A stretch of 57,546 bases of DNA from a virus (lineage: Duplodnaviria > Caudoviricetes), in IMG/VR virus record IMGVR_UViG_3300046171_000107, positions 1-57,546 of that record. The stretch is one strand, 5' to 3'. Below the pieces are notes generated by a model. The model searched no databases and was not told the origin of the DNA. It saw only the letters and a program-made list of their open reading frames with translations. Below, in pieces: positions 2,755 through 51,751 of this stretch (its first letter is position 1; every line of letters starts with the position of its first letter). Both the position numbers and the translations under genes were made by a program.

Positions 2755-2874
2755 TTTACTATTTCCCGTAGTTTTGGGGCTAGGCCGACGCCCCGTTAAA
2801 AAAGGCCTATGCGTGTTGTCTCATATTATCGCACCCCGTGCAAGCGGAAATTTTAAAAAATACTGTCGGGGGCA

Positions 2875-3230: not shown

Positions 3231-3619
3231 GCCGCCACCTCATAATCATCGGTAAAGGTTGCGTTTAGCATCTCCAATATATCATCGGGCAAAAACAATT
3301 CGGGGTCAGTGTATCCGATATATTGCTCAGATATGTTTGTGACGCCGTTTTTAGTCATGCGGGCTATGGTTTCAGCATTCCATGAACCGCGTTCATCATC
3401 AAACAGGATGGATTTACCGTCTTTTTCAATATCCATAATCAGATAATTATGGCATCCCCAACCGTCCGGCACGGTGTTATAGCCAAGGGCGTCTATCGCA
3501 CGACAAACAATGTTTGTCCCGTTCCACCCATCGCCGTCGTCAAAACCAAATTTTGAAAAGGCGTCTTCCCATGTCCATTCAACTACTGTTCTAGGCATAA
3601 CGCATCCCCCTTGCATCAC
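3227..3619 (-). CDS. Hypothetical acidic protein
   Basis: Operon context. Start probably at the internal Met (MPRTVV). Confidence 0.7.
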   Translation of the reverse strand: MMQGGCVMPRTVVEWTWEDAFSKFGFDDGDGWNGTNIVCRAIDALGYNTVPDGWGCHNYLIMDIEKDGKSILFDDERGSWNAETIARMTKNGVTNISEQYIGYTDPELFLPDDILEMLNATFTDDYEVAA

Positions 3620-3923
3620 TATGGTGACCTTCCAAAACCAGTTCGACAGAATAAGTGTCGCCGTCGTTCCAACCGTGTTCTTTTAACGCAACCTCGACCG
3701 CCGCGTCAGCATCAGGGGCTTCGACCAGTTCATAAATGCTATGCGGATGGTCTAAGAAAAACAGAACAGAAAATTTTAATTTTTTCGGCACGGCAAAGCC
3801 AAAAACATATATTTTCTGGTTGTCTTCATCGTCGGTGAAATCATGGTTCACATAAACGCCTGTAGGGCAATCATCGACCCAGTCCCAAAAGCGTTGGTCT
3901 ATTGTTCTATTATTTTCAGACAT
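3591..3923 (-). CDS. Hypothetical acidic protein
   Basis: GGGAG Shine-Dalgarno within an ACTACGGGAG box. Confidence 0.75.
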   Translation of the reverse strand: MSENNRTIDQRFWDWVDDCPTGVYVNHDFTDDEDNQKIYVFGFAVPKKLKFSVLFFLDHPHSIYELVEAPDADAAVEVALKEHGWNDGDTYSVELVLEGHHSDARGMRYA

Positions 3924-3968
3924 CGTTTTTACTCCCGTAGTTTGTTAACGATGCCCCATCGTATGCGA

Positions 3969-4436
3969 TTATATAGGACTTATCAAGTCAAAAATAGTTT
4001 CCCACTGAAAAGGCTGTTCACAACGGAAAATTGGCTCGACCGCTTCAAGCCCGTCCATCTTTAAATCGACCGCCGCATTAGCGGGATACAAAAAGCATTC
4101 GGCGGGTTCTGTCGGCTTGGTTTGTTTCTTAATCAATATCCAGCAACTGGCATGGCTATGCCGCGACAGCCACGCGACTTGCGACGGTTGCAGGGTGACG
4201 GCGTTGCCCGTTAAAAATTTTAGTTCGACAAAATGAAAGTCGCCTTTTTCATCGCAGATCATCAGGTCAGGAATACCCGCCCCGACCCAGTTCTCAATCC
4301 GCGTCAGCAGAAATTTCCTGTTCGACCTCTGCGCGGCTTCCTTCACTTGCTTGTAAAAGCCTGCCTCTCGCTTTGTTGCGATTGCTGGTATTTTCGTCTT
4401 TTTCTGTCGGGGTGACGTCGATGGTGATCGGGGCAT
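3969..4436 (-). CDS. VRR-NUC / Holliday-junction-resolvase-like PD-(D/E)XK nuclease
   Basis: E..F...RIEN...GIPDL...FVELK...L.PSQVAW pattern. Start uncertain because it overlaps terS. Confidence 0.8.
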   Translation of the reverse strand: MPRSPSTSPRQKKTKIPAIATKREAGFYKQVKEAAQRSNRKFLLTRIENWVGAGIPDLMICDEKGDFHFVELKFLTGNAVTLQPSQVAWLSRHSHASCWILIKKQTKPTEPAECFLYPANAAVDLKMDGLEAVEPIFRCEQPFQWETIFDLISPI

Positions 4437-5681: not shown

Positions 5682-6975
5682 TAAATACTTCCTCCAGCGG
5701 TTTATCTTTGTTTTTTAGGATCATGTCCCTGACCGTATGCACTTTTGGTATCCCGTAGGCTTCGCCTATTTCTTTGAGCGTTCGATATGTTTCGCCGTGA
5801 ATTACATAGGTGCGGTAGGGTTTGGGGCGGCTATGTGGCAGAACATCGGTGGTTAATGCGTCCTCTAATGTCCACCCGCTGTTTCTGACCCGTGAGGCGA
5901 CTAATTTGGGGTTTGCCCCGAAGGCTCGTGATGCGTGGGTCATGGACTTATATTCGACACCGAAGGCGATAACGGCTTTTAGCGGCTTATTATAAGGCGT
6001 GATCCGCGGTTCGATTTCCAAGGCTTGTTCGGCAGACCAGTTCAGCACCGCTATGCGGCGGTGGGCTGTTTTGTAGTCTACCGTGCCGAAGTAGTCGCAA
6101 GCGTCGGTCAATGTAGGGAAGATTTCCCCAGAAACGGATATGTCGGTTATTTTACGGACGGAAAACTTGGTTAGGCCGTGTTCTTTTTTAAGACGGTAGA
6201 GGGTGTGCTTAGCCATACCGTATTTTTTGGTTATATCGTCGTCGGTTGCCCCACCTTTAACCTCTTCGATTATTTGTTGGCGGACGGTGTCGTCGTATCG
6301 GACGGTCATTTCGGCGCGGGTTTTGGTTGCCCCTGCTCGTTGCAGGATTCGGTTTATGGTGCTACGCCGGACATCATATTTGTCGGCTAGTTGTTCGGTG
6401 GTGATTTTGTTTTCGGTGTAGTCGTTGATAACGGCTTGGATTTCATCATCTGACAGTTTGATACCATATCCGCCCATCGGTGCGCCGACTAAGCCGTTTA
6501 GATGGACGGCGTCGGGGAAGGCGGCTTGGACTTTGGCAATGAGCCGTGGTTCGCGGTGCGCGATCTCTGTTGCCTTGTATTTTTTACAGAAGATTTTAAT
6601 TTTGCACGGTTGGTCATTTTTTAGGAAAGCGCGGTAGATGAAGCGGTCTCTTTTATTGACGCCGTCTTTGCCGTCGCGCTTTGCTTTTTGGATGTGTTGT
6701 TTGAACCGCAGTTCGGGGTCTGCGCTTGACCCGATATATATGCCTTTTCCATCGACAGTTAAGGCATAAAGTTGGCAAGGCCTGTCGGCATGACCTGACA
6801 GTTCGGCGGGCGCGAGGGGCTTGAGCCCCAGTTTTTTGCCCCAGTTACGGACGATAGCGTAGTCGTTGTTGGACAGGCCTTTATTTCGGCAGGCCTGTAA
6901 CACGGAGATTTTTTCCTGCGCCGCGTGTTCATACATATCGCGGATTTGTTTGTCGGAAAACTTACGACGGGGCAT
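5659..6975 (-). CDS. GIY-YIG homing-endonuclease-like protein with multiple HTH/NUMOD DNA-binding repeats
   Basis: LYAL...IYIGSS....RFKQH, a conserved E and LN, followed by HTH and F.TL..A...G repeats. Confidence 0.8.
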   Translation of the reverse strand: MPRRKFSDKQIRDMYEHAAQEKISVLQACRNKGLSNNDYAIVRNWGKKLGLKPLAPAELSGHADRPCQLYALTVDGKGIYIGSSADPELRFKQHIQKAKRDGKDGVNKRDRFIYRAFLKNDQPCKIKIFCKKYKATEIAHREPRLIAKVQAAFPDAVHLNGLVGAPMGGYGIKLSDDEIQAVINDYTENKITTEQLADKYDVRRSTINRILQRAGATKTRAEMTVRYDDTVRQQIIEEVKGGATDDDITKKYGMAKHTLYRLKKEHGLTKFSVRKITDISVSGEIFPTLTDACDYFGTVDYKTAHRRIAVLNWSAEQALEIEPRITPYNKPLKAVIAFGVEYKSMTHASRAFGANPKLVASRVRNSGWTLEDALTTDVLPHSRPKPYRTYVIHGETYRTLKEIGEAYGIPKVHTVRDMILKNKDKPLEEVFNALTTNN

Positions 6976-7462
6976 CGTTTGCTCCCTTCAGATACCAGCG
7001 GCGGCGCGTGTCGGTTGACCAGTAGTCATTGTCATACGGATAGTCATTGTCATACGGATATGTTTTTTGCCGGAAGCATTCGTAGACCACGCAGACCTCA
7101 GACTGTGTGTCTTCATCTTTCCAGACGCAGAGGTCGAACATCCGCTCACCGACTTGGATGCCATACCAGTCCATATCATCACTGTCGCGCCCACTATGCT
7201 CATTTTGGATATGGGCATCACTTTCGTAGAACGCGGTCAGATAGCCCTTTTCATAGTCGGACAAAACCAGTTCGTCGTCATCAGAACCGTGATCCGCGGA
7301 CTGCGGGTATTGGTTATCCCAAGTGATTTCCTTTTGAGCGACATCTTCGGCGGTTGAGATAGCCAGAGCAATGTTTCTCCAGCCGTCATCCGCGTGTTCT
7401 GATTGGTCATCACAAATGTCGTATAGATCGGTCAGTTTTTTCAACACTTCCTGCTTTTTCAT
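6962..7462 (-). CDS. Hypothetical acidic protein
   Basis: Own promoter and RBS box; internal YPYDND duplication. Confidence 0.75.
   Translation of the reverse strand: MKKQEVLKKLTDLYDICDDQSEHADDGWRNIALAISTAEDVAQKEITWDNQYPQSADHGSDDDELVLSDYEKGYLTAFYESDAHIQNEHSGRDSDDMDWYGIQVGERMFDLCVWKDEDTQSEVCVVYECFRQKTYPYDNDYPYDNDYWSTDTRRRWYLKGANDAPS
7023..7058. repeat. Perfect in-frame 18-bp tandem duplication
   Basis: TAGTCATTGTCATACGGA x2. Confidence 0.9.
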
Positions 7463-7511
7463 ATCATTCTCCCGTAGTTGATATAAGATTTATCCCATAC
7501 ATAATATAAAT

Positions 7512-7531
7512 AAAAAGGGGCGTCAAGCCCC
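7512..7531 (-). terminator. Terminator hairpin whose loop is TTGAC (a -35 box)
   Basis: GGGGC-TTGAC-GCCCC-TTTTT on the minus strand. Confidence 0.65.
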
Positions 7532-7798
7532 TTAGTGTTTGGTCTCTGCATCATAATCATATGCGGCGGCGATTACTGCCGCTTGGTTCATGGCGGATGA
7601 CAGCATACCCATTGTGGTATTTGTGTCGGGGCTTTGCACCATAAGACGGAACAGAAGCGCGGTCAGCGCACCGCCCATCACGGCTCCTGCGTTATAGCCT
7701 TCGGCTTCCATTTCATCTAGCAGGGCGTTCATTTCATCCCCTGCAAAATCAAAATCGCGTTCTAGGTCGTTTTTCATCCCCGTTGTATCCTTTGCCAA
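7532..7798 (-). CDS. Hypothetical protein
   Basis: ORF in operon context. Start may be the internal ATG coupled to the upstream stop. Confidence 0.7.
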   Translation of the reverse strand: MAKDTTGMKNDLERDFDFAGDEMNALLDEMEAEGYNAGAVMGGALTALLFRLMVQSPDTNTTMGMLSSAMNQAAVIAAAYDYDAETKH

Positions 7799-7959
7799 GC
7801 CGCCTGTATTTCGGCGGAGCGTTCAACGGCTTCACGGCTAAATTGGCCTTCTGCCGCGATCCGTGATGCGTAGAGCGAGACCACCTGATTGAGGTGTTGA
7901 ACGGCTGTTTGCCAGTCCATCGCCCGTGCCTTCTCATTTACGATATCAGATTTCTTCAT
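7774..7959 (-). CDS. Hypothetical protein
   Basis: AGGA Shine-Dalgarno and operon context. Confidence 0.65.
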   Translation of the reverse strand: MKKSDIVNEKARAMDWQTAVQHLNQVVSLYASRIAAEGQFSREAVERSAEIQAAWQRIQRG

Positions 7960-8089
7960 TTTTGTCTTCCTTTACATAGAATTGGATTTCGACGAGCCCT
8001 TCTTCGGTTCGGCTACAATGCCAGACATCCTGATGGAGGTTTTCAAACAAAAGCAGATACAGTTCTTCGCGAGTTAGTTCTTTAATCAT
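7946..8089 (-). CDS. 47-aa hypothetical protein (MIKELTREELYLLLFENLHQDVW...), not in ORF track
   Basis: GGGAG Shine-Dalgarno and a consensus promoter immediately upstream. Confidence 0.7.
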   Translation of the reverse strand: MIKELTREELYLLLFENLHQDVWHCSRTEEGLVEIQFYVKEDKNEEI

Positions 8090-8121
8090 CTTATTCTCCC
8101 GTAGTTATATAAGATAACTCC

Positions 8122-8150
8122 TATATAGACTTACTACTACATATTGTCAA
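8122..8150 (-). promoter_or_regulatory. Sigma70-type promoter
   Basis: TTGACA-17 nt-TATATA on the minus strand. Confidence 0.8.
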
Positions 8151-8155
8151 CAAGT

Positions 8156-8225
8156 AAAAAAAGACCCCCAGAGCCTGAACTCTGAGGGTCTCACTACGGG
8201 AATGTAAAGCTTGGGGGCTCTACAA
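8156..8225 (-). ncRNA. Candidate trans-acting antisense sRNA (seed UUCCCGUAGU plus terminator)
   Basis: Promoter TTGCAA-16-TATATT (8258-8231), no ORF, seed at 8193-8202, 11-bp terminator stem (8163-8190) and a U7 tail. Seed is complementary to six RBS boxes. Confidence 0.7.
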
Positions 8226-8329
8226 ACCCTAATATAAGCGACTGTATGGGAATTGCAACATATATTTGGGTAATTTAATGGATTATTTTTGCTTAACTTT
8301 TGAATTAAATTAAGTCTTTAGCACGGGAG

Positions 8330-8749
8330 GTGTTTTTGGGGGCTTTTGAAGCGGGTAAACTTGGTGAGTATATCTGTGCGTCGCGGTTGATGAAGTTAGG
8401 TGTTTCCTGCGAAGTAGTCAATTTAGACACAGTGGACATTGTGGCTTATGTCGATCAGCGGCTGATCCGCATACAGGTGAAATCTAGCGTTTTAAAAAAG
8501 CACGGCAAGTCGCTGGGGTATCAGTTTGCTACCAGCATGGGCGGCAGAAAAAAGCCGCTCACTGTAGAGCATTGCGATATAGTGGCTCTTGTGGCTACTG
8601 ATTGTGAACGGGTGCTGTTTAAGCCCGTAGAATGTTTAAAGGGGCAGGTTACTAAGCGTATCCTGCCCCGTAAATTTGATAGAGACGACTTAGAATATAA
8701 GTCTTGGCATCACTGCATGGATTATCTCAATCAAGATCGTCAGGGTTGA
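8330..8749 (+). CDS. PD-(D/E)XK endonuclease (group I intron-associated / I-Ssp6803I-like)
   Basis: G.LGE...L...D.V....RIQVKS motif; GGAGG Shine-Dalgarno with GTG start. Confidence 0.75.
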   Translation: MFLGAFEAGKLGEYICASRLMKLGVSCEVVNLDTVDIVAYVDQRLIRIQVKSSVLKKHGKSLGYQFATSMGGRKKPLTVEHCDIVALVATDCERVLFKPVECLKGQVTKRILPRKFDRDDLEYKSWHHCMDYLNQDRQG

Positions 8750-9062
8750 TCCAGCCCTTTTCTAAGGCGTCCAACAGTTCGTCGTCAGATAGTCGGTCAA
8801 TGGCTGACGCCGAATACATTTTCTTTTTTTGGCGGCGTTTTGCCACTACTTGTTTTTGGACGGGTTTTGCCACTACTTGCGCTTCGGTAGGTGGTTCTAC
8901 ATCCACTACCTTTTTAATATCCGCTGATACCTCAATTGTGGCATAACGGTGGCTACATTTAAGACACTCCCTGTTCCGGCGAATTGTGCCGTCGTCCGTG
9001 GGTCGCGAGTTGTAGACCTTACTCTTTGATTTGCATTTTGGACATATCACGATAGTCTCCAA
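8727..9062 (-). CDS. NrdR-like N-terminal zinc-ribbon protein lacking the ATP-cone
   Basis: CPKC...SKVYNSR....TIRRNRECLKCSHRYATIE matches the NrdR Zn ribbon. Confidence 0.75.
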   Translation of the reverse strand: METIVICPKCKSKSKVYNSRPTDDGTIRRNRECLKCSHRYATIEVSADIKKVVDVEPPTEAQVVAKPVQKQVVAKRRQKKKMYSASAIDRLSDDELLDALEKGWINPDDLD

Positions 9063-9204
9063 TAGTTAGTAGGCAGACCTTACAGGTTACTGACCCGTCG
9101 TCCGCGGGCTCTGGCAGGTTAATCAGGCACTTTGGGCATCTGCCCGCGTCTAACGCCTTTTGTATTACACCAGCATCCCCGAAGGGTTCCCTATTCTTCG
9201 TCAT
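9019..9204 (-). CDS. Small Zn-ribbon protein
   Basis: CPKC...CKVC. Confidence 0.65.
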   Translation of the reverse strand: MTKNREPFGDAGVIQKALDAGRCPKCLINLPEPADDGSVTCKVCLLTIGDYRDMSKMQIKE

Positions 9205-9355
9205 TTTCGACCTCCCCTGACCCGCCGCAGAGTTCGCACTCCATCATACGGCCTTCTAGCCAGCCGCCGCGCCATGCCATAGGGGCGGGGACAGCGACTT
9301 CATATTCACACTGTCCCTCACCCCCGCACTCAGGGCAAGTAATATACTCAGGCAC
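9191..9355 (-). CDS. 54-aa DnaJ-type Zn-finger protein, not in ORF track
   Basis: GTG start; CPECGGEG...CELCGGSG (two CxxCxGxG repeats). Confidence 0.75.
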   Translation of the reverse strand: MPEYITCPECGGEGQCEYEVAVPAPMAWRGGWLEGRMMECELCGGSGEVENDEE

Positions 9356-9758
9356 GGCCTAGATCCCTCTGGCGTTGATACCAATTACGGTTGTGCTGTT
9401 TTACGCGCTCATTATTATTTTTGTTCCAATGCTTTTTGGAGCATTTCTTTGAACAAAACTTGCGCTGTTGACCCGTGAGCCGCGTTCCGCAGTTCGCGCA
9501 GTTTTTTCTGCCGTTCTTGCGCTTTTTAATTGGTGCGCGTTCCGGCATTGACACGACATTAGTAGGCGGGGCAGGTTCTGCGGCCTGTTTTTTAGCCTTT
9601 TCCCTAGCAAGGGCTTCGGCTACTTCGCCTTCAATTTCATAACGGAGCAAGATAGCCCGTGCGCCCAGCATTTCCATCGTGCGACGGCTCACGGCTCCTG
9701 TTTCGTCATACTCGTGCAGAACAAACTGCAAGGCATAAAGTGTATTGTGCTTTTCCAT
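9348..9758 (-). CDS. Hypothetical protein with C-terminal treble-clef Zn finger
   Basis: CANCG...RKFCSKKC; GGGAG Shine-Dalgarno. Confidence 0.75.
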   Translation of the reverse strand: MEKHNTLYALQFVLHEYDETGAVSRRTMEMLGARAILLRYEIEGEVAEALAREKAKKQAAEPAPPTNVVSMPERAPIKKRKNGRKNCANCGTRLTGQQRKFCSKKCSKKHWNKNNNERVKQHNRNWYQRQRDLGRA

Positions 9759-9838
9759 TCCGGTCTCCCGTATAAGAGTTGATAGAAATTATCCCATACC
9801 ATAGGTAAAAAAAGAGGTCAACTACATATAGTAGTTGA

Positions 9839-9997
9839 CTACTTATTTTTTAAATATTCGATACGGGTTTCTTTATAGACTTCCCACATAATGCGAAGTT
9901 GGCCGCTAATCGTGCGGCCTTCTGCTTTTGCGATTGTCTTTATCTGCTCGTAGACCTCTATCGGCACGAGAACAGACTTCCATTTGGTGATATCCAT
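9839..9997 (-). CDS. 52-aa ribbon-helix-helix (Arc/CopG-like) DNA-binding protein, not in ORF track
   Basis: MDITKWKSVLVPIEVYEQIKTIAKAEGRTISGQLRIMWEVYK...: beta strand, helix, G-R-T/S turn, helix. Confidence 0.75.
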   Translation of the reverse strand: MDITKWKSVLVPIEVYEQIKTIAKAEGRTISGQLRIMWEVYKETRIEYLKNK

Positions 9998-10206: not shown

Positions 10207-12099
10207 TCATTCCGCCTCTCCCCAGCTTGGGCCGATCTCGACGTCACACTTGCTGGGTATCTCTAATGGTACAGCATTTTCCATAATTTTGGCAATACTT
10301 TCTGCATCTTCACGATTTTTCACAGAAATTGCTATCTCATCGTGGATTTGAATGAGCGGGGTGCGCTCTTGTTCATAAATATTCACCATTGCTTGCTTTG
10401 TCATGTCTGCGGCGGACGCTTGGATAAGCCTGTTCAGGGCTTTGTAGGTGTATGCCCGCTTCAAACGGGTGGTCTCACCGTATTCTTTGACGGCATCTTG
10501 GTAGGGCAGAGCCTTATTCATGGCGAATGTATCGGGCTCCCAGAGGTCAAAACGGCACTTTCTGCCCAGTATAGAGCGGACAGAGCCGCTTGAGCCGCGG
10601 TCGTTGAGCCGCGCTTGGACGCCATTCATCAGGCCTTTAACAAAGGGGACACGCTCATGGTACTGACGGACTAGGCCTTTGGCTTCATCTACATCAATAT
10701 CTAGCTGGTCAGACAGTTTGTTCACCCCCATGCCATACATCATGCCAAGATTGATTGTCTTTGCCTGTTTGCGCGGGATCGACGCCATTTCTGCCACCAT
10801 CGTATGGAAGTCCATATTGGGGTCGTTGCGGTAGGCATCGACAAATTCTTCGACGCCAGCCATCTGCTTGCCGCGGGATTTGCCATATACATATGAGTAA
10901 TGCACCAAGATGCGTGGTTCCTGTTGCGAGAAATCAATCGCCGCCCACTGTTCCCCCTCTTCCGGCAGGAACAGGCTACGGATCATCGGGCCAAGTTCTG
11001 GGTCGCGGGCAGGGATTTGCTGCAAATTGGGGTTGGACATGGATATGCGCCCCGATACCGTGCCGCCGTCATCGGAGCGGATCTGGTTGATATGCCCGTG
11101 GATACGCCCGTCACTACGGCAATGCTTCATAATCGTGTTGATAAAGGTGCCGCTGGTCTTGTTCAAGTTGCGGGCTTTAACAATTAGCTGAGCCAGTTCA
11201 TGCGGATGGTCTGCAAGAAATGATTTCGTAAAAGACGGTGCGCCTTTTTCTGTGCGCGGGTAGGCAATGCTTAATTTATCAAAGGCCTTGGCTATTGACG
11301 CCGCCGCCCAGAGCTCTACATCAGAACCAGCCACGGATTTAATCCGTTTGATAACCTCTTTTTCCTGCTTAATTAAATAATTTCTGGTGCGCTCGACACG
11401 GTCTTGGTCAACGCGGACGCCGCGCCATGTCATGTCGATCAGGCAGGGCAGGAGTTTTAGTTCGAGTTCGGCGATAGGCCAGAGGTCTTCTTTAGTCAGT
11501 TGCGTAGACAAGTGATTCCACAAGTCGAGCGTGATTTCTGCGTCGTTCTGGGCATACGGCCCGACATACATAGCGGGCATCTTCCACATCTCAGCTTTTG
11601 GGTCGAGCCCGAACTCGCGGGCGGCCTCCTGTAGTGTCTTCTCTGTTTTAATTTTGCCCAGAAGGTCGTAACAGAGGCTGTTCAGGCTGTAACTGAAGCG
11701 GTTCTCGTCGAGTAGCGCGGCGATTAGCATCGTGTCGATGATTTTGCCGTTTAGCGTGAAGCCCATACGGCGTATCCAGCCCGCATCATATTGTGCGTTG
11801 TGCATGATCTTGTCGGCGGGGCACTCAAATACTTTCTTGAGCCATTTGTTGACGATGCGTTCGTCGAGATTGCCGCCACCAAGGTGGCGGATCGGGATAT
11901 ATCCTGCCCAATCCGCTACCGCGATAGCGTAGCCCACTACCTCACCATCTCCCGTAGGCCATCCGGGGCCGTTTGTCTTGATGTTTGGGTCGCGGGTCTC
12001 GACATCTATAGCAATTTGCTTTGCATCAAAGATGTCGGGTAGCTCTGCGGGTGGCACCCATTCACTCTTGGGGCCGAACATGGTCATCTGTAGTGCCAT
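10207..12099 (-). CDS. polA: Family A DNA polymerase with 3'-5' exonuclease
   Basis: DVET, HNAQYD, YAQND exonuclease motifs; DFSQQEPR, KTINLGMMYG, IHDE polymerase motifs; start coupled TGATG. Confidence 0.95.
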   Translation of the reverse strand: MALQMTMFGPKSEWVPPAELPDIFDAKQIAIDVETRDPNIKTNGPGWPTGDGEVVGYAIAVADWAGYIPIRHLGGGNLDERIVNKWLKKVFECPADKIMHNAQYDAGWIRRMGFTLNGKIIDTMLIAALLDENRFSYSLNSLCYDLLGKIKTEKTLQEAAREFGLDPKAEMWKMPAMYVGPYAQNDAEITLDLWNHLSTQLTKEDLWPIAELELKLLPCLIDMTWRGVRVDQDRVERTRNYLIKQEKEVIKRIKSVAGSDVELWAAASIAKAFDKLSIAYPRTEKGAPSFTKSFLADHPHELAQLIVKARNLNKTSGTFINTIMKHCRSDGRIHGHINQIRSDDGGTVSGRISMSNPNLQQIPARDPELGPMIRSLFLPEEGEQWAAIDFSQQEPRILVHYSYVYGKSRGKQMAGVEEFVDAYRNDPNMDFHTMVAEMASIPRKQAKTINLGMMYGMGVNKLSDQLDIDVDEAKGLVRQYHERVPFVKGLMNGVQARLNDRGSSGSVRSILGRKCRFDLWEPDTFAMNKALPYQDAVKEYGETTRLKRAYTYKALNRLIQASAADMTKQAMVNIYEQERTPLIQIHDEIAISVKNREDAESIAKIMENAVPLEIPSKCDVEIGPSWGEAE

Positions 12100-16331: not shown

Positions 16332-16340
16332 GACGCCCCC

Positions 16341-16381
16341 AAAAGAAAAAGGGTGACGTTATAACGCTATAACGCCACCCC
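16341..16381 (-). terminator. Rho-independent terminator
   Basis: GGGTGGCGTTATA-gcgt-TATAACGTCACCC followed by TTTTTCTTTT. Confidence 0.8.
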
Positions 16382-16387
16382 AGTTAC

Positions 16388-17179
16388 TTAGAACGGCACG
16401 TCGTCGGAGAGGTTTTCTCCGCTAACATTATCGTCCTGATGCTTCACAACAACGTCACCTGACTGGATACTTGCGTTGAACTCTTTTGCACGGTTGTACA
16501 GGTTCATATCCTCGACAGGACCGACGCGGCTCATTTCCCAGCCGTGCCAGCTACCTTTGCTGTTTTCTTCCAGTTGCGTCTTGAGGTGGTAAACATGGCT
16601 AAAACGTGGCGGGGTAAACGGCCCATTCTTGCCCTGCATTGTTACCGAAGACACCATGCTGTTCCATTTTCTGGACTTCTTTAGCTGGGTGGACTTCATC
16701 GCAATCAACGCAGTCTCAGCAGAGCCGTCGTCGTTAAGGACGATGACAAAGTGCTGGTGCGTCTCTTCGATGTACTGACCGGATCCGTCGTTGACGTATT
16801 CCTTGTTGTCATCAACAGACCGCTCAGTTTTTGGCATCTTTTCACCCGGTGAGTAGATAGCCACGGGAGCGCCCGTTCCTTCGCCTCTAGGGGCCCATTG
16901 GATGAACCGACGCTGGTAGGCTACCGGAATGACGTTGATGCCATCCTTGCCTTTGTAAACCATGCCAGAGACACTGTTCAGGATGTCACCCTTACGGGCG
17001 TCTTCTAGGTCGTCAAGCTCCTTGCTCATACCACCCAGAATTTTCAGGAATGGCAGGGCAAGATCATCTTGACCCATATTTTCCAGACCAACACCAGCAT
17101 CGGCCTCAAACATAGTTGGGTCGAACTGGACGATTTCAGCAGTTTTCTGCTCTGCTACAGCATTCTTTTTCTCAGCCAT
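16388..17179 (-). CDS. Putative single-stranded DNA-binding protein
   Basis: Located in the replication module; acidic DDVPF C-terminus; start MAEKK with GAGGAG Shine-Dalgarno. Confidence 0.65.
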   Translation of the reverse strand: MAEKKNAVAEQKTAEIVQFDPTMFEADAGVGLENMGQDDLALPFLKILGGMSKELDDLEDARKGDILNSVSGMVYKGKDGINVIPVAYQRRFIQWAPRGEGTGAPVAIYSPGEKMPKTERSVDDNKEYVNDGSGQYIEETHQHFVIVLNDDGSAETALIAMKSTQLKKSRKWNSMVSSVTMQGKNGPFTPPRFSHVYHLKTQLEENSKGSWHGWEMSRVGPVEDMNLYNRAKEFNASIQSGDVVVKHQDDNVSGENLSDDVPF

Positions 17180-17180
17180 T

Positions 17181-17759
17181 TTATTTGCTCCTCTTAACAA
17201 CGGCTCGTTGACCAATGTAGGCTCCAAACAATTCCATCGGGAAATCGTCTCCGTTCTCGACGCGCTCTTTAACAAAGGCACGAAGTGTCTGCGGGTGGAT
17301 TTCCGTTTTCTGTTCTGCAAGGAAACCTTCTTTTTCAGCAAACTCCTTAAAGGCGGATGCCTTGTCGTCTTCACCGCGGCCAAACTGACACGCGATTGTA
17401 TTTTTGATGATGTCATCATAGCCTCGCTCCCGTAGCCACTCGTATGCCGCCGGACGATTGTCCACCAGAATGCTTGCGCCGTAGGTTTGCTTGACTGTAA
17501 CTTCTGAGCCGTCATCAAGTTTCATGCTAGACAGACCAATTTCCGCTAACATAGTAGGTAGGTCTTCATCCGTCATTTTGAGCAAAACTTTCTTCTCGTC
17601 CTTCAGCTTCTGCTCAAGGTCGTTGATTGCTTTCTCCTTATCACGGATTGCTCTGGCCATCCCAGCGACTGTAGTTAAGTCGCCTTGGTCCAGTTTTTCG
17701 ACTGATGTAGCCAAACTGTCTTCAAAGTCTTGCTCCATCTGTTCAAAGATATCGCTCAT
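17181..17759 (-). CDS. Conserved replication-module protein (coiled-coil N-terminus, HPQTLRAFVKE motif)
   Basis: AGGAG Shine-Dalgarno; motif typical of genes adjacent to the SSB. Confidence 0.8.
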   Translation of the reverse strand: MSDIFEQMEQDFEDSLATSVEKLDQGDLTTVAGMARAIRDKEKAINDLEQKLKDEKKVLLKMTDEDLPTMLAEIGLSSMKLDDGSEVTVKQTYGASILVDNRPAAYEWLRERGYDDIIKNTIACQFGRGEDDKASAFKEFAEKEGFLAEQKTEIHPQTLRAFVKERVENGDDFPMELFGAYIGQRAVVKRSK

Positions 17760-17798
17760 CGCGTTTCTCCTATCGTGGTTAAAGGCACCGTTCGGGCC

Positions 17799-17839
17799 TT
17801 GACAATGTTATATATATGCTTATATTGTCTTAGTGTCAA
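17799..17839. promoter_or_regulatory. Overlapping divergent sigma70 promoters
   Basis: Plus strand TTGACA-16-TATATT; minus strand TTGACA-17-TATATA. Confidence 0.75.
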
Positions 17840-17850
17840 GGAGAAAAATC

Positions 17851-19299
17851 ATGCGGGATTATAATTTTAAAACGAAGCCGTTCGACCACCAGCAGAAAGC
17901 GTGGGAAGACTCGTGGGCCGCGGACTATTACGCACTGTTCATGGAGATGGGAACAGGTAAGTCCAAGGTGGCGATTGACACTATCGGTGCCTTATATAAG
18001 GCAAAGCGGATTAGTGCTGCTTTAATTCTAGCCCCTAAAGGCGTGTATGACAACTGGGTAAAAGGCGAGATACCTACTCACCTGCCCGATGACATTGAGC
18101 GCATGATCGTGCGCTGGACACCATCTACCGCTAAAAAGTTTCAAGAAGACATGAAGGAACTTGTGTATGGCGAGTTTGACGGGCTCAAGGTGTTTGTAAT
18201 GAACGTCGAGGCGCTGTCCACGCCGCGTGGTACGAAGGCCGCATATTTTTTTCTGAAAGAAAATCCTGACAACATAATGGTGGTGGATGAAAGCACGACG
18301 ATCAAAAACCGCAAAGCGACACGCACCAAAAACATTATGATGCTGGCGAAAGACGCCACATATAAACGCATCCTGACGGGATCCCCCGTGACTAAGTCAC
18401 CGATGGATTTGTACTCACAATGTATGTTCCTGTCCCCCGAAGCGCTGGGCTTTAGTAGCTACTATGCCTTTCAGAACCGCTATGCGCTGGTGCAAAAGCG
18501 CAAGATGGGCACTCGTGCCTTTCAGGAAATTGTCGGCTATCGACGGCTGGATGAACTCAACCTCAAACTGGACCGCTTTAGTAACCGCATCCTGAAAGAG
18601 CAGTGCTTGGATTTACCTGATAAGATGTATATACGGCGCGACGTTGAACTGACGGATGAGCAGAAGCGCGTCTACAAGCAGATGAAGAAACTGGCACTTG
18701 CTAAGTTGGAGAATGGGGAGTTAGCTACTACGGCTAGTGTGCTGACACAGATTATGCGGCTACAACAGATATGTTGTGGTCACCTTCAACCGGATGAAGG
18801 GGAAATTCAGGCTCTGGACAACAACCGCTTGCGGGAGTTGCTGGAGATTACTGACGAGTTACAGGGTAAGGCTATCATTTGGGCGACGTATACACACGAC
18901 ATTCAACAGGTAGCCAATGCCCTGCGCGACCGCTTTGGGCCCGAAGCGGTCGCAACCTATTACGGCGCTACGCCGCAAGATGAACGGCAGGAGATCGTGG
19001 AGCGCTTCCAAGAGAAGGACGGGCCGCTACGGTTTTTTGTCGGTCAGCCCAAGACGGGCGGCTACGGCATCACCCTGACTGCGGCGAATACGGTCATTTA
19101 TTACAGCAATAGTTACGACTTAGAGATACGGTTGCAGTCCGAAGATCGCGCACACCGCATTGGGCAGAGCCGTAAGGTGACTTATATCGACTTGGTGTCG
19201 CCCGACACTATCGACGAGAAGGTGCTGAAAGCCTTGCGTAGTAAGATTGACCTCGCCGGTAAAGTGCTAGGCGAAGAGGCTAGGGCTTGGCTGCTTTAA
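17851..19299 (+). CDS. SNF2-family (SF2) helicase
   Basis: MEMGTGKS, DEST, LTGSP, GGYGITLT, QSEDRAHRIGQ; AGGAG Shine-Dalgarno before ATG 17851. Confidence 0.92.
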   Translation: MRDYNFKTKPFDHQQKAWEDSWAADYYALFMEMGTGKSKVAIDTIGALYKAKRISAALILAPKGVYDNWVKGEIPTHLPDDIERMIVRWTPSTAKKFQEDMKELVYGEFDGLKVFVMNVEALSTPRGTKAAYFFLKENPDNIMVVDESTTIKNRKATRTKNIMMLAKDATYKRILTGSPVTKSPMDLYSQCMFLSPEALGFSSYYAFQNRYALVQKRKMGTRAFQEIVGYRRLDELNLKLDRFSNRILKEQCLDLPDKMYIRRDVELTDEQKRVYKQMKKLALAKLENGELATTASVLTQIMRLQQICCGHLQPDEGEIQALDNNRLRELLEITDELQGKAIIWATYTHDIQQVANALRDRFGPEAVATYYGATPQDERQEIVERFQEKDGPLRFFVGQPKTGGYGITLTAANTVIYYSNSYDLEIRLQSEDRAHRIGQSRKVTYIDLVSPDTIDEKVLKALRSKIDLAGKVLGEEARAWLL

Positions 19300-51042: not shown

Positions 51043-51251
51043 TCACTTGGCTTTGCACCCTTGCTGTTTACATACAAACCAAACCACGCGGCCCCCGCGC
51101 CAACGATCACACTGACAAATCCCGCCTGTGCGTTATTCGGGTCGGGCAAGGCCATAAACCAAGTACACGTCTTGTAAAACACAATCATGTAACTGAGGAT
51201 GAGCAACCGCGGAACAATCCGCCACGCATCCAATTTTTCCGGGGTAATCAT
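51039..51251 (-). CDS. Two-TM holin-like protein
   Basis: LDAWRIVPR...WFM.L..P...Q..FVS.I.GA...WFGLYV; ATGA-coupled start. Confidence 0.65.
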   Translation of the reverse strand: MITPEKLDAWRIVPRLLILSYMIVFYKTCTWFMALPDPNNAQAGFVSVIVGAGAAWFGLYVNSKGAKPSE

Positions 51252-51724
51252 GCAGAACCTTTCGTTTTGACAAGCCAAATAAACCCTATCAGAACCACTG
51301 CTCCAATAAGGATTGACCCAATTATAACACAAATCTCAATAAATTTCTGCCTGCGCTCACGCTGACGATACAGCGTCTCCTGCCGCTGCTTACGGATGTT
51401 GCCCTCCATGCGAATGAGCTCGTCCCAAGCAGATATACCCATAGTCAGGCTAATCCATTGTTTTAATTCATCTCTTTGGGCTTGCGCTTTGCGTTTAGCA
51501 GCAAAGGCCTCAATGGCCTCCTGCTCTACAGACTTGCCGTTAAATAATTTTTTGAATATAGGGGGGTTCTTGGCTTCTTTTTCCGCTTGGTCAATATCAG
51601 AAAGAGCGCCCATCCATCTGGACAGGTCGCCCACCATTGACTCAACGTCACGCCCTACTGCAAAACCTTTTTTAAGTGCCCCAAACGCCGCTGACGCGGT
51701 CGCCATCGCCGAAACTGGATCCAT
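51248..51724 (-). CDS. Conserved membrane protein (lysis region)
   Basis: MDPVS.. N-terminus, coiled coil, C-terminal TM helix; RBS carries the ACTACGGGAA box. Confidence 0.75.
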   Translation of the reverse strand: MDPVSAMATASAAFGALKKGFAVGRDVESMVGDLSRWMGALSDIDQAEKEAKNPPIFKKLFNGKSVEQEAIEAFAAKRKAQAQRDELKQWISLTMGISAWDELIRMEGNIRKQRQETLYRQRERRQKFIEICVIIGSILIGAVVLIGFIWLVKTKGSA

Positions 51725-51751
51725 AACTATTTCCCGTAGTTATAATAAACA

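What the first reader, a model, noticed from the sequence alone, without database searches (positions are those of the whole stretch)
8156..8258. Candidate phage-encoded multi-target antisense sRNA silencing its own genes at the RBS
Seen: an ORF-free minus-strand unit consisting of promoter TTGCAA-16-TATATT, then ...CUUUACAUUCCCGUAGU, then an 11-bp terminator stem and U7. The complementary box ACUACGGGAR forms the Shine-Dalgarno region 6-8 nt before the ATG of five genes: DUF932 (2763-2772), ORF 3923 (3932-3941), ORF 7462 (7469-7478), ORF 8089 (8096-8105) and ORF 51724 (51731-51740). A sixth gene, ORF 9758, has the 8-nt UACGGGAG (9765-9772). Each early target is the first gene after a promoter-like region. 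The copy at 8193-8202 is the only intergenic one I found in the opposite orientation. The ACUAC half is not explained by anti-SD pairing. The sRNA promoter overlaps the putative RHH operator. Inference: a repressor plus sRNA circuit that shuts off translation of an entire early regulon through one shared seed. I do not know of a description of this in such phages.
Basis: partly seen in the sequence, partly recalled or inferred. Interest (0 to 1): 0.9.

Follow-up and report, generated by a model that had tools for sequence, protein, structure and literature searches.

The report
Phage small RNA matching shared ribosome sites
A small non-coding RNA gene in an uncultured, apparently lytic phage carries the exact complement of a sequence box that forms the ribosome-binding site of several of the phage's own operons, and related phages have changed the RNA and the boxes together, which points to one RNA controlling translation of a whole set of phage genes.

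Summary
ACTACGGGAR occurs 6 times (0.15 expected): five minus-strand copies sit 6-8 nt before ATGs, and one plus-strand copy lies in an ORF-free unit with a promoter, a 5' hairpin, an 11-nt unpaired linker (AUUCCCGUAGU) and an intrinsic terminator.

The unit is a conserved gene. It has one copy per related phage, is better conserved than its flanks, and its helices covary.

The decisive evidence is comparative. Relatives fall into RBS "dialects", and the small RNA carries the matching complement in each:
- A: ACUACGGGAR with UUCCCGUAGU.
- B: UUGGAGAAUGU with ACAUUCUCCAA.
- C: GGAGAACUAA with UUAGUUCUCC.
- D: CAUACAGGAR with UUCCUGUAUG, a likely fourth in the cultured phage DSL-LC04.

 A clade without the unit has no box.

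Best reading (0.72): a trans-acting antisense sRNA that occludes the RBS of the first genes of several phage operons.

Not shown: the transcript, the sign and timing of regulation, or Hfq dependence.

It is mechanistically closest to P1/P7 c4 RNA and functionally to T4 RegA/RegB, but it belongs to no Rfam family. It is a new variant of a known kind.

The parts
8253..8258 (-). -35-like hexamer TTGCAA of the small-RNA promoter
   Evidence: Promoter scan. The position and sequence are kept (TTGCAA/TTGCAT/TTGACA/TTGACG) in relatives of all dialects.
8231..8236 (-). -10-like hexamer TATATT. It lies 16 nt after the -35 and 7 nt before the predicted first base, G at 8223.
   Evidence: In relatives the hexamer varies as TATATT, TATAAA, TATAAT, TATAGT or TAGAAT at the same place, and the 7-8 nt after it are not conserved. 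The start site is inferred, not measured.
8156..8223 (-). Predicted small RNA of about 68 nt, with no ORF
   Evidence: The covariance model R1 finds exactly one copy in the window (90.1 bits). MFE is -32.2 kcal/mol, z = -6.1. No ORF of 20 aa or more. No Rfam family.
8204..8223 (-). 5' hairpin SL1 (GUAGAGC-CCCCAA-GCUUUAC)
   Evidence: Pair 4/21 is G-U in 7 variants, G-C in 4 and A-U in 3. No pair changed on both sides.
8193..8202 (-). Seed UUCCCGUAGU, lying in the 11-nt unpaired linker 8193-8203
   Evidence: Unpaired in the MFE and the centroid structure. TTCCCGTA is invariant in 14 distinct variants. It is the exact complement of the box.
8156..8192 (-). Intrinsic terminator: stem-loop 8161-8192 and a U-run that overlaps the base of the stem
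   Evidence: Eight of its 14 pairs show changes on both sides across relatives.
8096..8105 (-). Box ACUACGGGAG, 6 nt before the ATG of ORF 7946-8089, the first gene after the small RNA
   Evidence: The box lies in the loop of a hairpin that sequesters the AUG (z = -3.1). In relatives, 63 of 67 unit rows have NNTACGGGAR before the first ATG downstream.
7469..7478 (-). Box ACUACGGGAG, 6 nt before the ATG of ORF 6962-7462
3932..3941 (-). Box ACUACGGGAG, 8 nt before the ATG of ORF 3591-3923
   Evidence: A 10-bp stem sequesters the AUG and the box is in the loop (z = -3.2).
2763..2772 (-). Box ACUACGGGAA, 8 nt before the ATG of the 379-aa ORF 1615-2754
   Evidence: The same gene carries the B box or the C box in other clades.
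51731..51740 (-). Box ACUACGGGAA, 6 nt before the ATG of ORF 51248-51724, in the structural-gene region
9765..9772 (-). Shorter box UACGGGAG, 6 nt before the ATG of ORF 9348-9758
   Evidence: The form TATACGGGAG is kept at this gene in relatives.
8323..8329 (+). Partial box ACGGGAG in the RBS of the divergent PD-(D/E)XK-like gene 8330-8749. It is a weaker candidate target.
   Evidence: Its duplex energy ranks third among 79 translation start regions. This is a prediction only.
8122..8150 (-). Promoter-like TTGACA-17-TATATA of the 8089 operon, starting 5 nt after the U-run of the small RNA
   Evidence: Read from the sequence. The scan does not list it, because TATATA lacks T at position 6. The order terminator, then TTGACA, then box gene is kept in relatives.

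Best explanation
8156-8223 (minus strand) is the gene of a trans-acting, base-pairing small RNA of about 68 nt. It is probably transcribed by host RNA polymerase from its own sigma-70-like promoter and ends at its own intrinsic terminator.

Its unpaired linker UUCCCGUAGU pairs with the box ACUACGGGAR. That box forms the Shine-Dalgarno region of the first gene of five or six separate phage operons, in several of them displayed in the loop of a hairpin whose stem holds the AUG. Pairing covers the Shine-Dalgarno sequence, so the 30S subunit cannot bind, and one RNA turns down translation of the whole set.

The seed is an anti-Shine-Dalgarno core plus a specificity extension. Related phages use other extensions, with matching boxes.

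Shown: the anatomy, its conservation, the complementarity, the co-occurrence, and the clade-wise covariation of seed and boxes.

Inferred: that the RNA is made, that pairing represses rather than activates, when it acts, and whether Hfq or an RNase takes part.
For: 1. The box is real and tied to start codons.
- 6 matches against 0.15 expected.
- 5 of 5 sense copies lie 6-8 nt before an ATG.
- It is the top recurrent 10-mer upstream of ATGs.
- Its distance to the -10 element varies from about 15 to about 58 nt while its distance to the ATG stays fixed. That makes it an RNA-level element, not a promoter-level one.
- In relatives the box also precedes genes on the opposite strand, always in gene orientation (L014, L025).

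2. The single antisense copy sits in the unpaired linker of an ORF-free unit running from promoter to terminator.

3. The unit is a conserved gene.
- It is present upstream of the PD-(D/E)XK gene in 31 of 48 related loci.
- The covariance model finds one copy per unit-bearing source (21 hits in 21 of 34 sources searched), all at E<=7e-11, and nothing below E=0.8 in the others.
- 89.7% of cells are paired. Eight pairs changed on both sides, against 3.1+-1.2 in shuffles (0 of 500 shuffles as high). Slid controls reach at most 63%.
- The promoter-to-seed stretch is 86-92% identical in 5 of 6 comparisons. The adjacent 80 nt are 51-78% identical and the neighbouring gene 65-84%.

4. Co-occurrence.
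- The 17 loci of the clade without the unit have 0 RBS boxes and no recurrent RBS 8-mer.
- 63 of 67 unit rows are followed within 110 nt by NNTACGGGAR plus ATG. The other 4 are one-mismatch variants. The first gene downstream nevertheless differs among relatives.

5. Regulon-wide covariation. Among 96 loci holding the 379-aa gene family, 65 have only A boxes, 27 only B boxes (TGGAGAAT), 1 only C boxes, 2 are mixed and 1 has none.
- Five B loci reach the site (L233, L235, L257, L261, L263). Each holds a homologous unit with the same promoter core and a related terminator. Its 5' hairpin carries ACAUUCUCCAA, the complement of UUGGAGAAUGU.
- In L235, 4 of 4 gene-strand TGGAGAAT copies are at an RBS, and the only opposite-strand copy is the unit.
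- L269 holds a unit with a hairpin loop UCUCC and the seed UUAGUUCUCC. That is the complement of GGAGAACUAA at two RBSs.
- All 10 of 10 loci with 8 kb or more upstream of the 379-aa gene hold a unit of the matching dialect.

6. The same architecture recurs in the cultured phage DSL-LC04. CATACAGGAR has 4 hits against 0.11 expected. Three are at RBSs (GGAG form). One is antisense (GGAA form, giving UUCCUGUAUG on the gene strand) and lies directly before a terminator.

7. U in the seed opposite the R of the box lets one RNA pair with both the GGGAA and GGGAG targets. All A and D antisense copies carry it.

8. Restricted to 79 translation start regions, box genes take ranks 1, 2, 4, 5 and 7 for duplex energy, at -15.6 to -19.4 kcal/mol against a median of -8.9. 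This is partly circular, because those regions contain the box.
Against: - No transcript evidence of any kind.
- A 10-bp duplex is not exceptional genome-wide. Sliding duplex energies of the boxes (-16 to -18 kcal/mol) are matched by many coding-sequence sites.
- Within clade A the seed hardly varies. Cognate sRNA-target pairs are not better matched than non-cognate ones: mean contiguous pairing is 10.16 against 9.94.
- In some A relatives most boxes are AACACGGGAG, with only 6 contiguous pairs to their sRNA (L204-L206).
- In L195, L197, L206 and L227 the first gene after the unit has an ordinary AAGGAG RBS.
- Two of 96 loci mix dialects.
- B loci L256 and L257 hold a TCCCGTAG copy inside an ORF.
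- The clade-level switches are few independent events: three or four.
- A sequence-specific DNA-binding protein would also see both orientations of a box.
- The direction of regulation is inferred from where the pairing falls.
Confidence: 0.72

Rival explanations
1. Same RNA and same pairing, but the outcome is activation or protection rather than silencing. Binding to the loop could melt the hairpin that sequesters the AUG. It could also shield the GGAG-type site from an endonuclease, or stabilise the mRNA.
For: In 4 of 6 targets the AUG lies in a stem with the box in the loop. A 10-bp duplex inside a 12-19-nt loop should strain that stem. T4 RegB shows that Shine-Dalgarno GGAG sites can be nuclease targets (PMC3014915, passages read).
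Against: The pairing covers the Shine-Dalgarno purines themselves. In dialects B and C the seed core is CUCC, the same as the ribosome's own anti-Shine-Dalgarno. A bound RNA should therefore exclude the 30S subunit even if the AUG is freed.
Confidence: 0.1
2. The unit is mainly a cis-acting leader. Read-through of its terminator would put the anti-box and the box of the next gene, about 95 nt downstream, on one transcript. The anti-box then sequesters that RBS in cis, as an attenuator of the adjacent operon only.
For: The unit is directly followed by a box-bearing first gene in 63 of 67 rows. Only about 5 nt separate the U-run from the next -35.
Against: A full promoter (TTGACA-17-TATATA) lies between the terminator and the box, so the next gene does not need read-through. 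Four to seven further boxes lie kilobases away on other operons. In L195, L197, L206 and L227 the adjacent gene lacks the box while distant genes have it. The terminator is strong, with 14 pairs and U7.
Confidence: 0.07
3. The box is a binding site for a protein. The protein could bind RNA, making the site a translational operator like those of T4 RegA or the MS2 coat protein. It could instead bind DNA, in which case the antisense copy is simply one more site. On this reading the small unit is only a terminator.
For: The boxes sit in hairpin loops, as protein operators often do. A DNA-binding protein would read either orientation. Palindromes overlap the -35 of neighbouring promoters, for example 9817-9839, so protein control of these promoters is likely anyway.
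Against: An RNA-binding protein would not recognise the complement, yet the complement is kept in every dialect at one place only. That place is always antisense, always between a conserved promoter and a terminator, and always unpaired or in a loop. The box keeps its distance to the ATG, not to the promoter. In A and D the antisense copy always has the A form, giving U in the RNA, which makes sense for G-U pairing but not for a DNA site. No candidate regulator co-varying with dialect was looked for.
Confidence: 0.07
4. Chance. On this reading, an ordinary terminator happens to be preceded by the complement of a repeated RBS.
For: One antisense 10-mer in 57.5 kb is not impossible, at about 0.1 expected. 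Ten-base-pair matches abound.
Against: The same coincidence would have to recur with three other unrelated sequences in other clades. The linker would also have to be the best-conserved part of the unit by accident.
Confidence: 0.02

Closest known systems
c4 antisense RNA of phages P1 and P7
   Same: It is a phage-encoded small RNA that acts by complementarity on the region around a ribosome-binding site of the phage's own mRNA and blocks translation. The complementary stretches are thought to lie in loops. P1 and P7 differ in specificity, which gives heteroimmunity. (Review PMC12197685, passages read.) The dialects found here are the same kind of matched change in RNA and target.
   Different: There is no sequence or structure match to any Rfam family, in gathering or E-value mode. 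This RNA has its own promoter and terminator. Its targets are the first genes of five or six separate operons rather than one operon. The genome has no integrase or resolvase, and no prophage copy was found among species-representative bacterial genomes, so this is not a lysogenic immunity setting. I recall, but did not check, that c4 is cut out of its own operon's transcript and acts on sites downstream in that transcript.
T4 RegA (translational repressor) and RegB (endonuclease cutting GGAG)
   Same: One phage factor acts on the translation start regions of many early or middle mRNAs through a shared motif at the Shine-Dalgarno region. This helps the switch away from early expression (PMC3014915, passages read). 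It is the closest functional analogue.
   Different: Those effectors are proteins. Here the candidate effector is an RNA, with specificity set by base pairing. No homologue of either protein was looked for.
cis-encoded phage antisense RNAs (P22 sar, lambda OOP and aQ)
   Same: They are small phage RNAs that lower expression of a phage gene by pairing. Sar interferes with translation initiation of ant (PMC12197685, section 4 read).
   Different: Those RNAs are transcribed from the strand opposite their single target and overlap it. This RNA lies on the same strand as its targets, overlaps none of them, and matches only a 10-nt box present at many places.
Multi-target trans-acting bacterial and prophage sRNAs with a conserved seed (for example RybB and DicF; VpdS of phage VP882)
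   Same: Shared features are an own promoter, a Rho-independent terminator with a U-tail, a short conserved unpaired seed, and several unlinked targets hit at the RBS. VpdS is reported to affect both phage and host mRNAs (PMC12197685).
   Different: The targets proposed here are a set of the phage's own operons that share one exact box, in a phage without lysogeny genes. Host targets could not be examined because the host is unknown. Hfq binding is untested. The properties of RybB are recalled. Its Rfam model scored 14.5 bits against a threshold of 40, so there is no relationship.

Membership tests
Trans-encoded base-pairing small RNA (general class) | Independent transcription unit: own promoter, own intrinsic terminator, no ORF | tested here: met
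   Promoter-like and terminator-like sites. No ORF of 20 aa or more. The -35 and -10 positions are kept across relatives while the bases between the -10 and the first hairpin vary. These are predictions from sequence only.
Trans-encoded base-pairing small RNA (general class) | Conserved secondary structure with an accessible, conserved seed | tested here: met
   z = -6.1, with the seed unpaired. Helices covary. TTCCCGTA is invariant in 14 variants. In dialects B and C the seed core is in a hairpin loop.
Trans-encoded base-pairing small RNA (general class) | Complementarity to several unlinked mRNAs at their translation start regions | tested here: met
   Five exact boxes and one 8-nt box at an RBS. 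Box genes rank top among 79 start regions. Six to eight RBS boxes per relative.
Trans-encoded base-pairing small RNA (general class) | Seed and targets change together in evolution | tested here: met
   Between clades: dialects A, B and C, and probably D. Within clade A there was no signal, apart from single cases L013-15, L153 and L165.
Trans-encoded base-pairing small RNA (general class) | The RNA exists in infected cells, and target expression responds to it | not testable with these tools
   No RNA run holding the phage was listed. There is no culture of this phage.
Hfq-dependent sRNA | Binds Hfq and needs it for action | not testable with these tools
   Only the terminator hairpin with its U-run is seen. 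The host is unknown.
c4-type antisense RNA of P1/P7 (Rfam C4) | Sequence and structure homology to the family | tested here: not met
   No Rfam match at gathering score in the window. C4 is not among the 17 weak matches at E<=10 in 8100-8300.
c4-type antisense RNA of P1/P7 (Rfam C4) | Part of a lysogenic immunity region of a temperate phage | tested here: not met
   No tyrosine or serine recombinase in a record rated 100% complete. The 12 pattern hits in bacterial genomes are chance; 0 were confirmed by the model.
c4-type antisense RNA of P1/P7 (Rfam C4) | Specificity types with matched changes in RNA and target | tested here: met
   This is a likeness in how it works, not membership.
cis-encoded antisense RNA | Transcribed opposite to, and overlapping, its target gene | tested here: not met
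   The unit is on the same strand as its targets and overlaps no ORF.
Plain intrinsic terminator of an upstream operon | Nothing conserved beyond the stem and T-run | tested here: not met
   The promoter, the 5' hairpin and the linker are better conserved than the terminator loop and the flanks.

The most novel reading that the evidence does not exclude
A family of lytic phages carries an addressable RNA master switch. One small RNA, made of an anti-Shine-Dalgarno core plus a specificity extension, controls translation of the phage's whole accessory-gene set. The extension and all its target boxes have been re-coded together into at least three or four orthogonal dialects.

On this reading the dialects are not drift. 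They would be the product of conflict between co-infecting relatives: a resident phage's RNA silences the incoming genome of the same dialect, and a new dialect escapes. That would be an RNA-based superinfection exclusion, or heteroimmunity, without lysogeny.
Probability: 0.15. Interest if true: 0.92.

Novelty: new variant of a known kind. Interest (0 to 1): 0.82.

Why it matters
Known phage regulatory RNAs fall into three groups: they act on one neighbouring gene (sar, OOP, c4), they act mainly on host genes (DicF, PreS), or they have no known function. Global shut-off of early translation is known only as the work of proteins (T4 RegA and RegB).

If the reading here holds, a single RNA does that job for a set of operons in a lytic phage. 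Its specificity would then be written in about 10 nt that evolution has rewritten several times together with all the targets.

This would matter in three ways:
- It would add a regulon-scale, RNA-only layer to phage developmental control.
- It would make sRNA-target co-evolution directly observable in natural genomes.
- It would supply ready-made orthogonal sRNA/RBS pairs for synthetic biology.

The probable dialect in the cultured phage DSL-LC04 makes the idea testable at the bench.

Four full-text searches and one review (PMC12197685: section 4 and passages) showed no such system. That review's Supplementary Table S1, which lists 38 phage sRNAs without a described function, could not be opened and might bear on this.

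Tried and rejected
- Nucleotide search of 7400-9800 against cultured phage records: no match.
- Rfam: nothing at gathering score and nothing near it in E-value mode.
- Expression: no RNA holder listed. Read laying was not used, because only two contig-only runs of unknown kind were offered.
- RNAalifold on the plain MAFFT alignment gave a poor consensus because the terminator arms were misaligned. I therefore gave the window's MFE structure to the model builder and counted pairs on the model-based alignment. That alignment leans towards the given structure.
- The genome-wide duplex-energy scan does not separate the boxes from background.
- The cognate versus non-cognate pairing test within clade A had no power.
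- TACGGGAG at 17427 looked like a seventh target, but it lies inside ORF 17181-17759. The copy at 11949 lies inside the polymerase gene.
- The extra CTACGGGAG hits in record G002 lie in a 66-nt coding repeat and in another ORF.
- Pfam found no RHH protein among 20 neighbouring ORFs and no DUF932.
- No integrase or resolvase.
- No phage RNA polymerase among 10 large ORFs. The remaining ORFs were not scanned.
- The bacterial-genome scan gave 12 pattern hits in unrelated phyla. None was confirmed by the model.
- Targets for the C-rich loop of SL1: TTGGGGGC has 6 hits against 2.9 expected, which is not significant.
- Type I toxin-antitoxin reading: the first gene downstream differs among relatives. 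The window's 47-aa ORF does not look hydrophobic, but I judged that by eye and ran no tool on it.
- Phage 023Pt_psg01, first 50 kb: no convincing box and antisense pair. HTVC023P and HTVC027P were not examined.
- In one search the coordinates I gave for L257 and L191 were wrong: they included the promoter and cut the terminator. Those two folds are not used.
- One search returned nothing because the regular expression was too strict. One search failed on a sorting error. Both were redone. In one search seven rows picked the -10 region instead of the real RBS, so one search gives the proper count.
Full report
WHAT THE WINDOW IS. The window is a complete virus record of 57,546 bp, rated 100% complete with terminal repeats. 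Nearly all its genes are on the minus strand.
- It encodes a large terminase, a portal, tail and virion proteins, a family-A DNA polymerase, a primase and helicases, and a small terminase.
- No tyrosine or serine recombinase was found.
- Its DNA has no nucleotide match among cultured phage records.
- Its polymerase is 49-54% identical to those of phage DSL-LC04, phage 023Pt_psg01 and Pelagibacter phages HTVC023P and HTVC027P.
- The host is unknown.

- ACTACGGGAR has six exact matches where 0.15 are expected.
- The five minus-strand copies lie 6-8 nt before the ATGs at 2754, 3923, 7462, 8089 and 51724. TACGGGAG lies 6 nt before the ATG at 9758.
- An unbiased count of k-mers in the 22 nt before 218 ATG-ORFs puts AACTACGGGA first, with 5 occurrences.
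- The box keeps its distance to the start codon, while its distance to the nearest -10-like element ranges from about 15 to about 58 nt.
- In relatives the box also precedes genes on the other strand, always in gene orientation. It therefore belongs to the mRNA, not to the promoter.
- Two further TACGGGAG copies are inside coding sequence.

THE ANTISENSE COPY. The only plus-strand copy (8193-8202) lies in a stretch with no ORF of 20 aa or more.
- On the minus strand this stretch reads TTGCAA-16-TATATT, then 7 nt, then a 68-nt sequence.
- That sequence folds into a 7-bp hairpin, an 11-nt unpaired linker AUUCCCGUAGU, and a 14-bp terminator with a U-run. MFE is -32.2 kcal/mol, z = -6.1.
- The seed is exactly the unpaired part.

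THE UNIT IS A CONSERVED GENE.
- The PD-(D/E)XK-like gene that diverges from it (8330-8749) brought in 49 related loci. I examined 48 of them. L049 was left out because its match starts at base 1.
- Of the 48, 31 carry the unit at the same place, although the protein is only 59-91% identical.
- A covariance model built from 14 distinct variants finds one copy in the window and one in each unit-bearing locus, at E<=7e-11. It finds none in the others.
- On the model-based alignment, 89.7% of cells pair. Eight pairs changed on both sides, against 3.1+-1.2 in shuffles (0 of 500). Slid controls pair at 63% at most. All eight of those pairs are in the terminator. The 5' hairpin shows only one-sided changes.
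- The stretch from the -35 to the seed is 86-92% identical to five of six compared relatives. The adjacent 80 nt are 51-78% identical and the neighbouring gene 65-84%.
- Pattern scans found the unit in 45 viral stretches and 74 metagenome stretches, the latter including about a dozen chance hits.
- Of 67 distinct, untruncated unit rows, 63 are followed within 110 nt by NNTACGGGAR plus ATG. The other four carry one-mismatch variants.
- More than ten different first genes follow the unit, by eye. The regulatory module is kept while the cargo changes.

CO-OCCURRENCE. The 17 loci without the unit next to the PD-(D/E)XK gene form a clade with a different upstream gene. They have no RBS box, no model hit and no recurrent RBS 8-mer.

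THE DECISIVE RESULT: DIALECTS. The 379-aa protein whose gene carries the box at 2763 has over 400 relatives in viral contigs. I saw the best 80 of each of two searches, which gave 96 distinct loci.
- Sixty-five have only A-type RBS boxes (TACGGGAR), 27 only TGGAGAAT-type boxes, one only GGAGAACTAA boxes, two are mixed and one has none.
- The same gene is preceded by ...ACTACGGGAA-8-ATG in the window, by TTGGAGAATGT-5-ATG in clade B and by TGGAGAACTAA-4-ATG in L269.
- Five B loci reach far enough upstream (L233, L235, L257, L261, L263). Each holds, 5.3-7 kb upstream, a unit with a clearly homologous promoter: TTGAC(A/G)(C/T)ATCCCATAAA(G/A)TCGC(G/T)TA..., compared with the window's TTGCAATTCCCATACAGTCGCTTA. 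The terminator is related too.
- The 5' hairpin of these B units is (A)GACAUU-CUCC(AA)-AAUGUU(U). It contains ACAUUCUCCAA, the exact complement of the B box.
- In L235 all four gene-strand TGGAGAAT copies are at an RBS, and the only opposite-strand copy is the unit.
- L269 holds a unit with the same promoter core. Its second hairpin, GUUAGU-UCUCC-GCUAAC, contains UUAGUUCUCC, the complement of its own box (z = -6.7).
- All ten loci with 8 kb or more upstream of the 379-aa gene hold a unit of the matching dialect: eight A and two B.
- Within clade A there are smaller matched shifts:
  - L013-15: seed GUAAU with boxes GUUAC and AUUAC.
  - L153: seed GUAGUAA with box UUACUAC, 12 bp.
  - L165: a seed lengthened on both sides, 11-15 bp with its six targets.
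  - L191: an RNA that has lost the 5' hairpin and starts at the seed.

A CULTURED CANDIDATE. In DSL-LC04, CATACAGGAR has four exact hits against 0.11 expected.
- Three are GGAG-form copies at RBSs on the gene strand.
- One is a GGAA-form copy in the opposite orientation. On the gene strand it reads UUCCUGUAUG, directly before an intrinsic terminator, a few bases after the stop codon of a small CDS, and upstream of another box-like gene.
- It lacks an obvious promoter of its own, so it may be a 3'-UTR-derived RNA.
- The parallel with the window is close: several sense copies, one antisense copy next to a terminator, and U opposite the variable purine.

HOW IT MOST LIKELY WORKS.
- The seed is an anti-Shine-Dalgarno core (UCCC in A, UCC in D, CUCC in B and C) with a specificity extension on one side.
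- The boxes are the Shine-Dalgarno purines with the matching extension.
- In four of six window targets the AUG is held in a stem and the box is displayed in the loop. In B and C both partners are small hairpins that mirror each other (the target hairpins are weak).
- This is the classical geometry of antisense control: loop, or single strand, meeting loop.
- Pairing over the Shine-Dalgarno should keep the 30S subunit off. One RNA would then lower translation of the first genes of several operons, and with them probably of the coupled downstream genes.
- Which genes: small proteins of unknown function, an acidic 166-aa protein followed by a GIY-YIG/HTH protein, an HNH-like protein followed by an NrdR/Ogr-like zinc-ribbon protein, the 379-aa protein, and one gene among the head genes.
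- The replication operon and most structural genes use ordinary AGGAG sites.
- Timing is open. The promoters of the RNA and of its targets look alike and share a CCCATA/TATGGG motif. That would fit a delayed self-limiting loop, in which a stable RNA accumulates and shuts the class off. This is inference.

RIVALS.
- Activation or protection instead of repression cannot be excluded from sequence (0.10).
- A purely cis-acting leader is unlikely, because a full promoter lies between the unit and the next gene, and most boxes are kilobases away (0.07).
- A protein that reads the box, as RNA or as DNA, does not explain why each dialect keeps exactly one complement, always antisense, always between a conserved promoter and a terminator (0.07).
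- Chance is excluded by the recurrence in other dialects (0.02).

WEAKNESSES.
- There is no RNA evidence.
- Ten base pairs is not unusual genome-wide.
- Within clade A there is no covariation signal.
- Some A relatives have boxes that match their RNA over only six contiguous pairs, or a first downstream gene without a box.
- Two loci mix dialects.
- The dialect switches are few independent events.
- The pair counts were made on an alignment fitted to the structure I supplied.

COMPARISON WITH WHAT IS KNOWN.
- By mechanism the closest is the c4 RNA of P1 and P7. It is an antisense RNA to the region of a ribosome-binding site, with complementary stretches in loops and specificity types that give heteroimmunity (PMC12197685, passages).
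- It is not a member of that family. There is no Rfam match, it has its own promoter and terminator, it has many operons as targets, and there is no sign of lysogeny.
- By function the closest are T4 RegA and RegB, proteins that act on shared motifs in the start regions of many early mRNAs (PMC3014915, passages).
- It is not a cis-antisense RNA like sar or OOP (PMC12197685, section 4).
- Four searches of the paper library and that review gave no description of a phage small RNA controlling a set of its own operons through one shared RBS box. The review's supplementary list of uncharacterised phage sRNAs could not be read.

VERDICT. It is a new variant of a known kind of regulator, of high interest, and testable in a cultured relative.

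Noticed in passing
window 8330-8749 (+), start region 8323-8345: This is the divergent PD-(D/E)XK-like gene (Pfam PDDEXK_5 at 24.5 bits, below the cut-off; phrog_5018). Its start region is complementary to the small RNA twice: ACGGGAG to the seed, and UUGGGGGCU (start codon and next two codons) to the C-rich loop of the 5' hairpin. The primase RBS at 16335-16342 also reads UUGGGGGC. TTGGGGGC as a whole is not significantly enriched (6 hits against 2.9 expected).
   Followed up: partly
window 9817-9839; 8128-8150; relatives: A perfect 9-5-9 palindrome, GTCAACTAC-TATAT-GTAGTTGAC, overlaps the -35 of the 9758 promoter. In relatives the -35 of the promoter after the small RNA lies in palindromes such as TGACAA-TATG-TTGTCA or TGACTA-TATG-TAGTCA. 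They look like operators of a dimeric DNA-binding protein. No such protein was identified.
   Followed up: no
window 7492-7499, 9791-9798, 1541-1548 (as TATGGGAT on the minus strand); 8243-8250; L235, L261, L263, L269 promoters: An 8-nt motif, ATCCCATA and its complement TATGGGAT, marks these promoters. It lies in the spacer of the small-RNA promoter in all dialects and in the spacer of target promoters in dialects B and C. In the window it lies in the opposite orientation at the -10 region of three operon starts (4 hits against 1.25 expected). It may be a shared regulator site or a promoter-class mark.
   Followed up: partly
window 3909-3975 (-): The leader of ORF 3923 holds ACGAUG twice, once as a decoy upstream and once at the start codon. 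CAUCGU lies between them and can pair with either copy. It looks like a two-state switch that frees or sequesters the AUG, with the box in the loop of the sequestering form. The leader is kept in relatives (tcgttaacaaACTACGGGAGtaaaaacgatg).
   Followed up: partly
window 16388-17860 (-): The long ORF 16388-17518 probably starts later, since its PHROG match begins at residue 112. Upstream lies a 192-aa gene, 17181-17759, with an ordinary AGGAGA site. Its promoter, TTGACA-17-TATATA, is bracketed by the inverted repeat CCTTGACA...TGTCAAGG at about 17800-17845.
   Followed up: partly
L276 (phage DSL-LC04, OR003939.1) 17204-17256 (-), boxes at 18036, 18625, 18856, 17130-17139: This cultured relative has its own extended RBS box, (A)CAUACAGGAG, and one antisense copy next to a terminator in the 3' UTR of a small CDS. 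It is a candidate for bench tests.
   Followed up: partly
L162 (record G002) about 10500-10900: A tail-fibre-like coding repeat with a 66-nt period contains CTACGGGAG in each unit. It is a source of false box counts in whole-record scans.
   Followed up: yes
L268 618-640: A locus with B-type boxes at two RBSs also has one A-type box, ACTACGGGAG-6-ATG, at an internal gene. It is either a mosaic of dialects or chance.
   Followed up: partly
window 8201-8206 (+): On the plus strand the antisense box copy is followed at once by ATG TAA. With no spacing to the GGGA it is unlikely to be translated. It is noted only because it looks like a start-stop pair.
   Followed up: no
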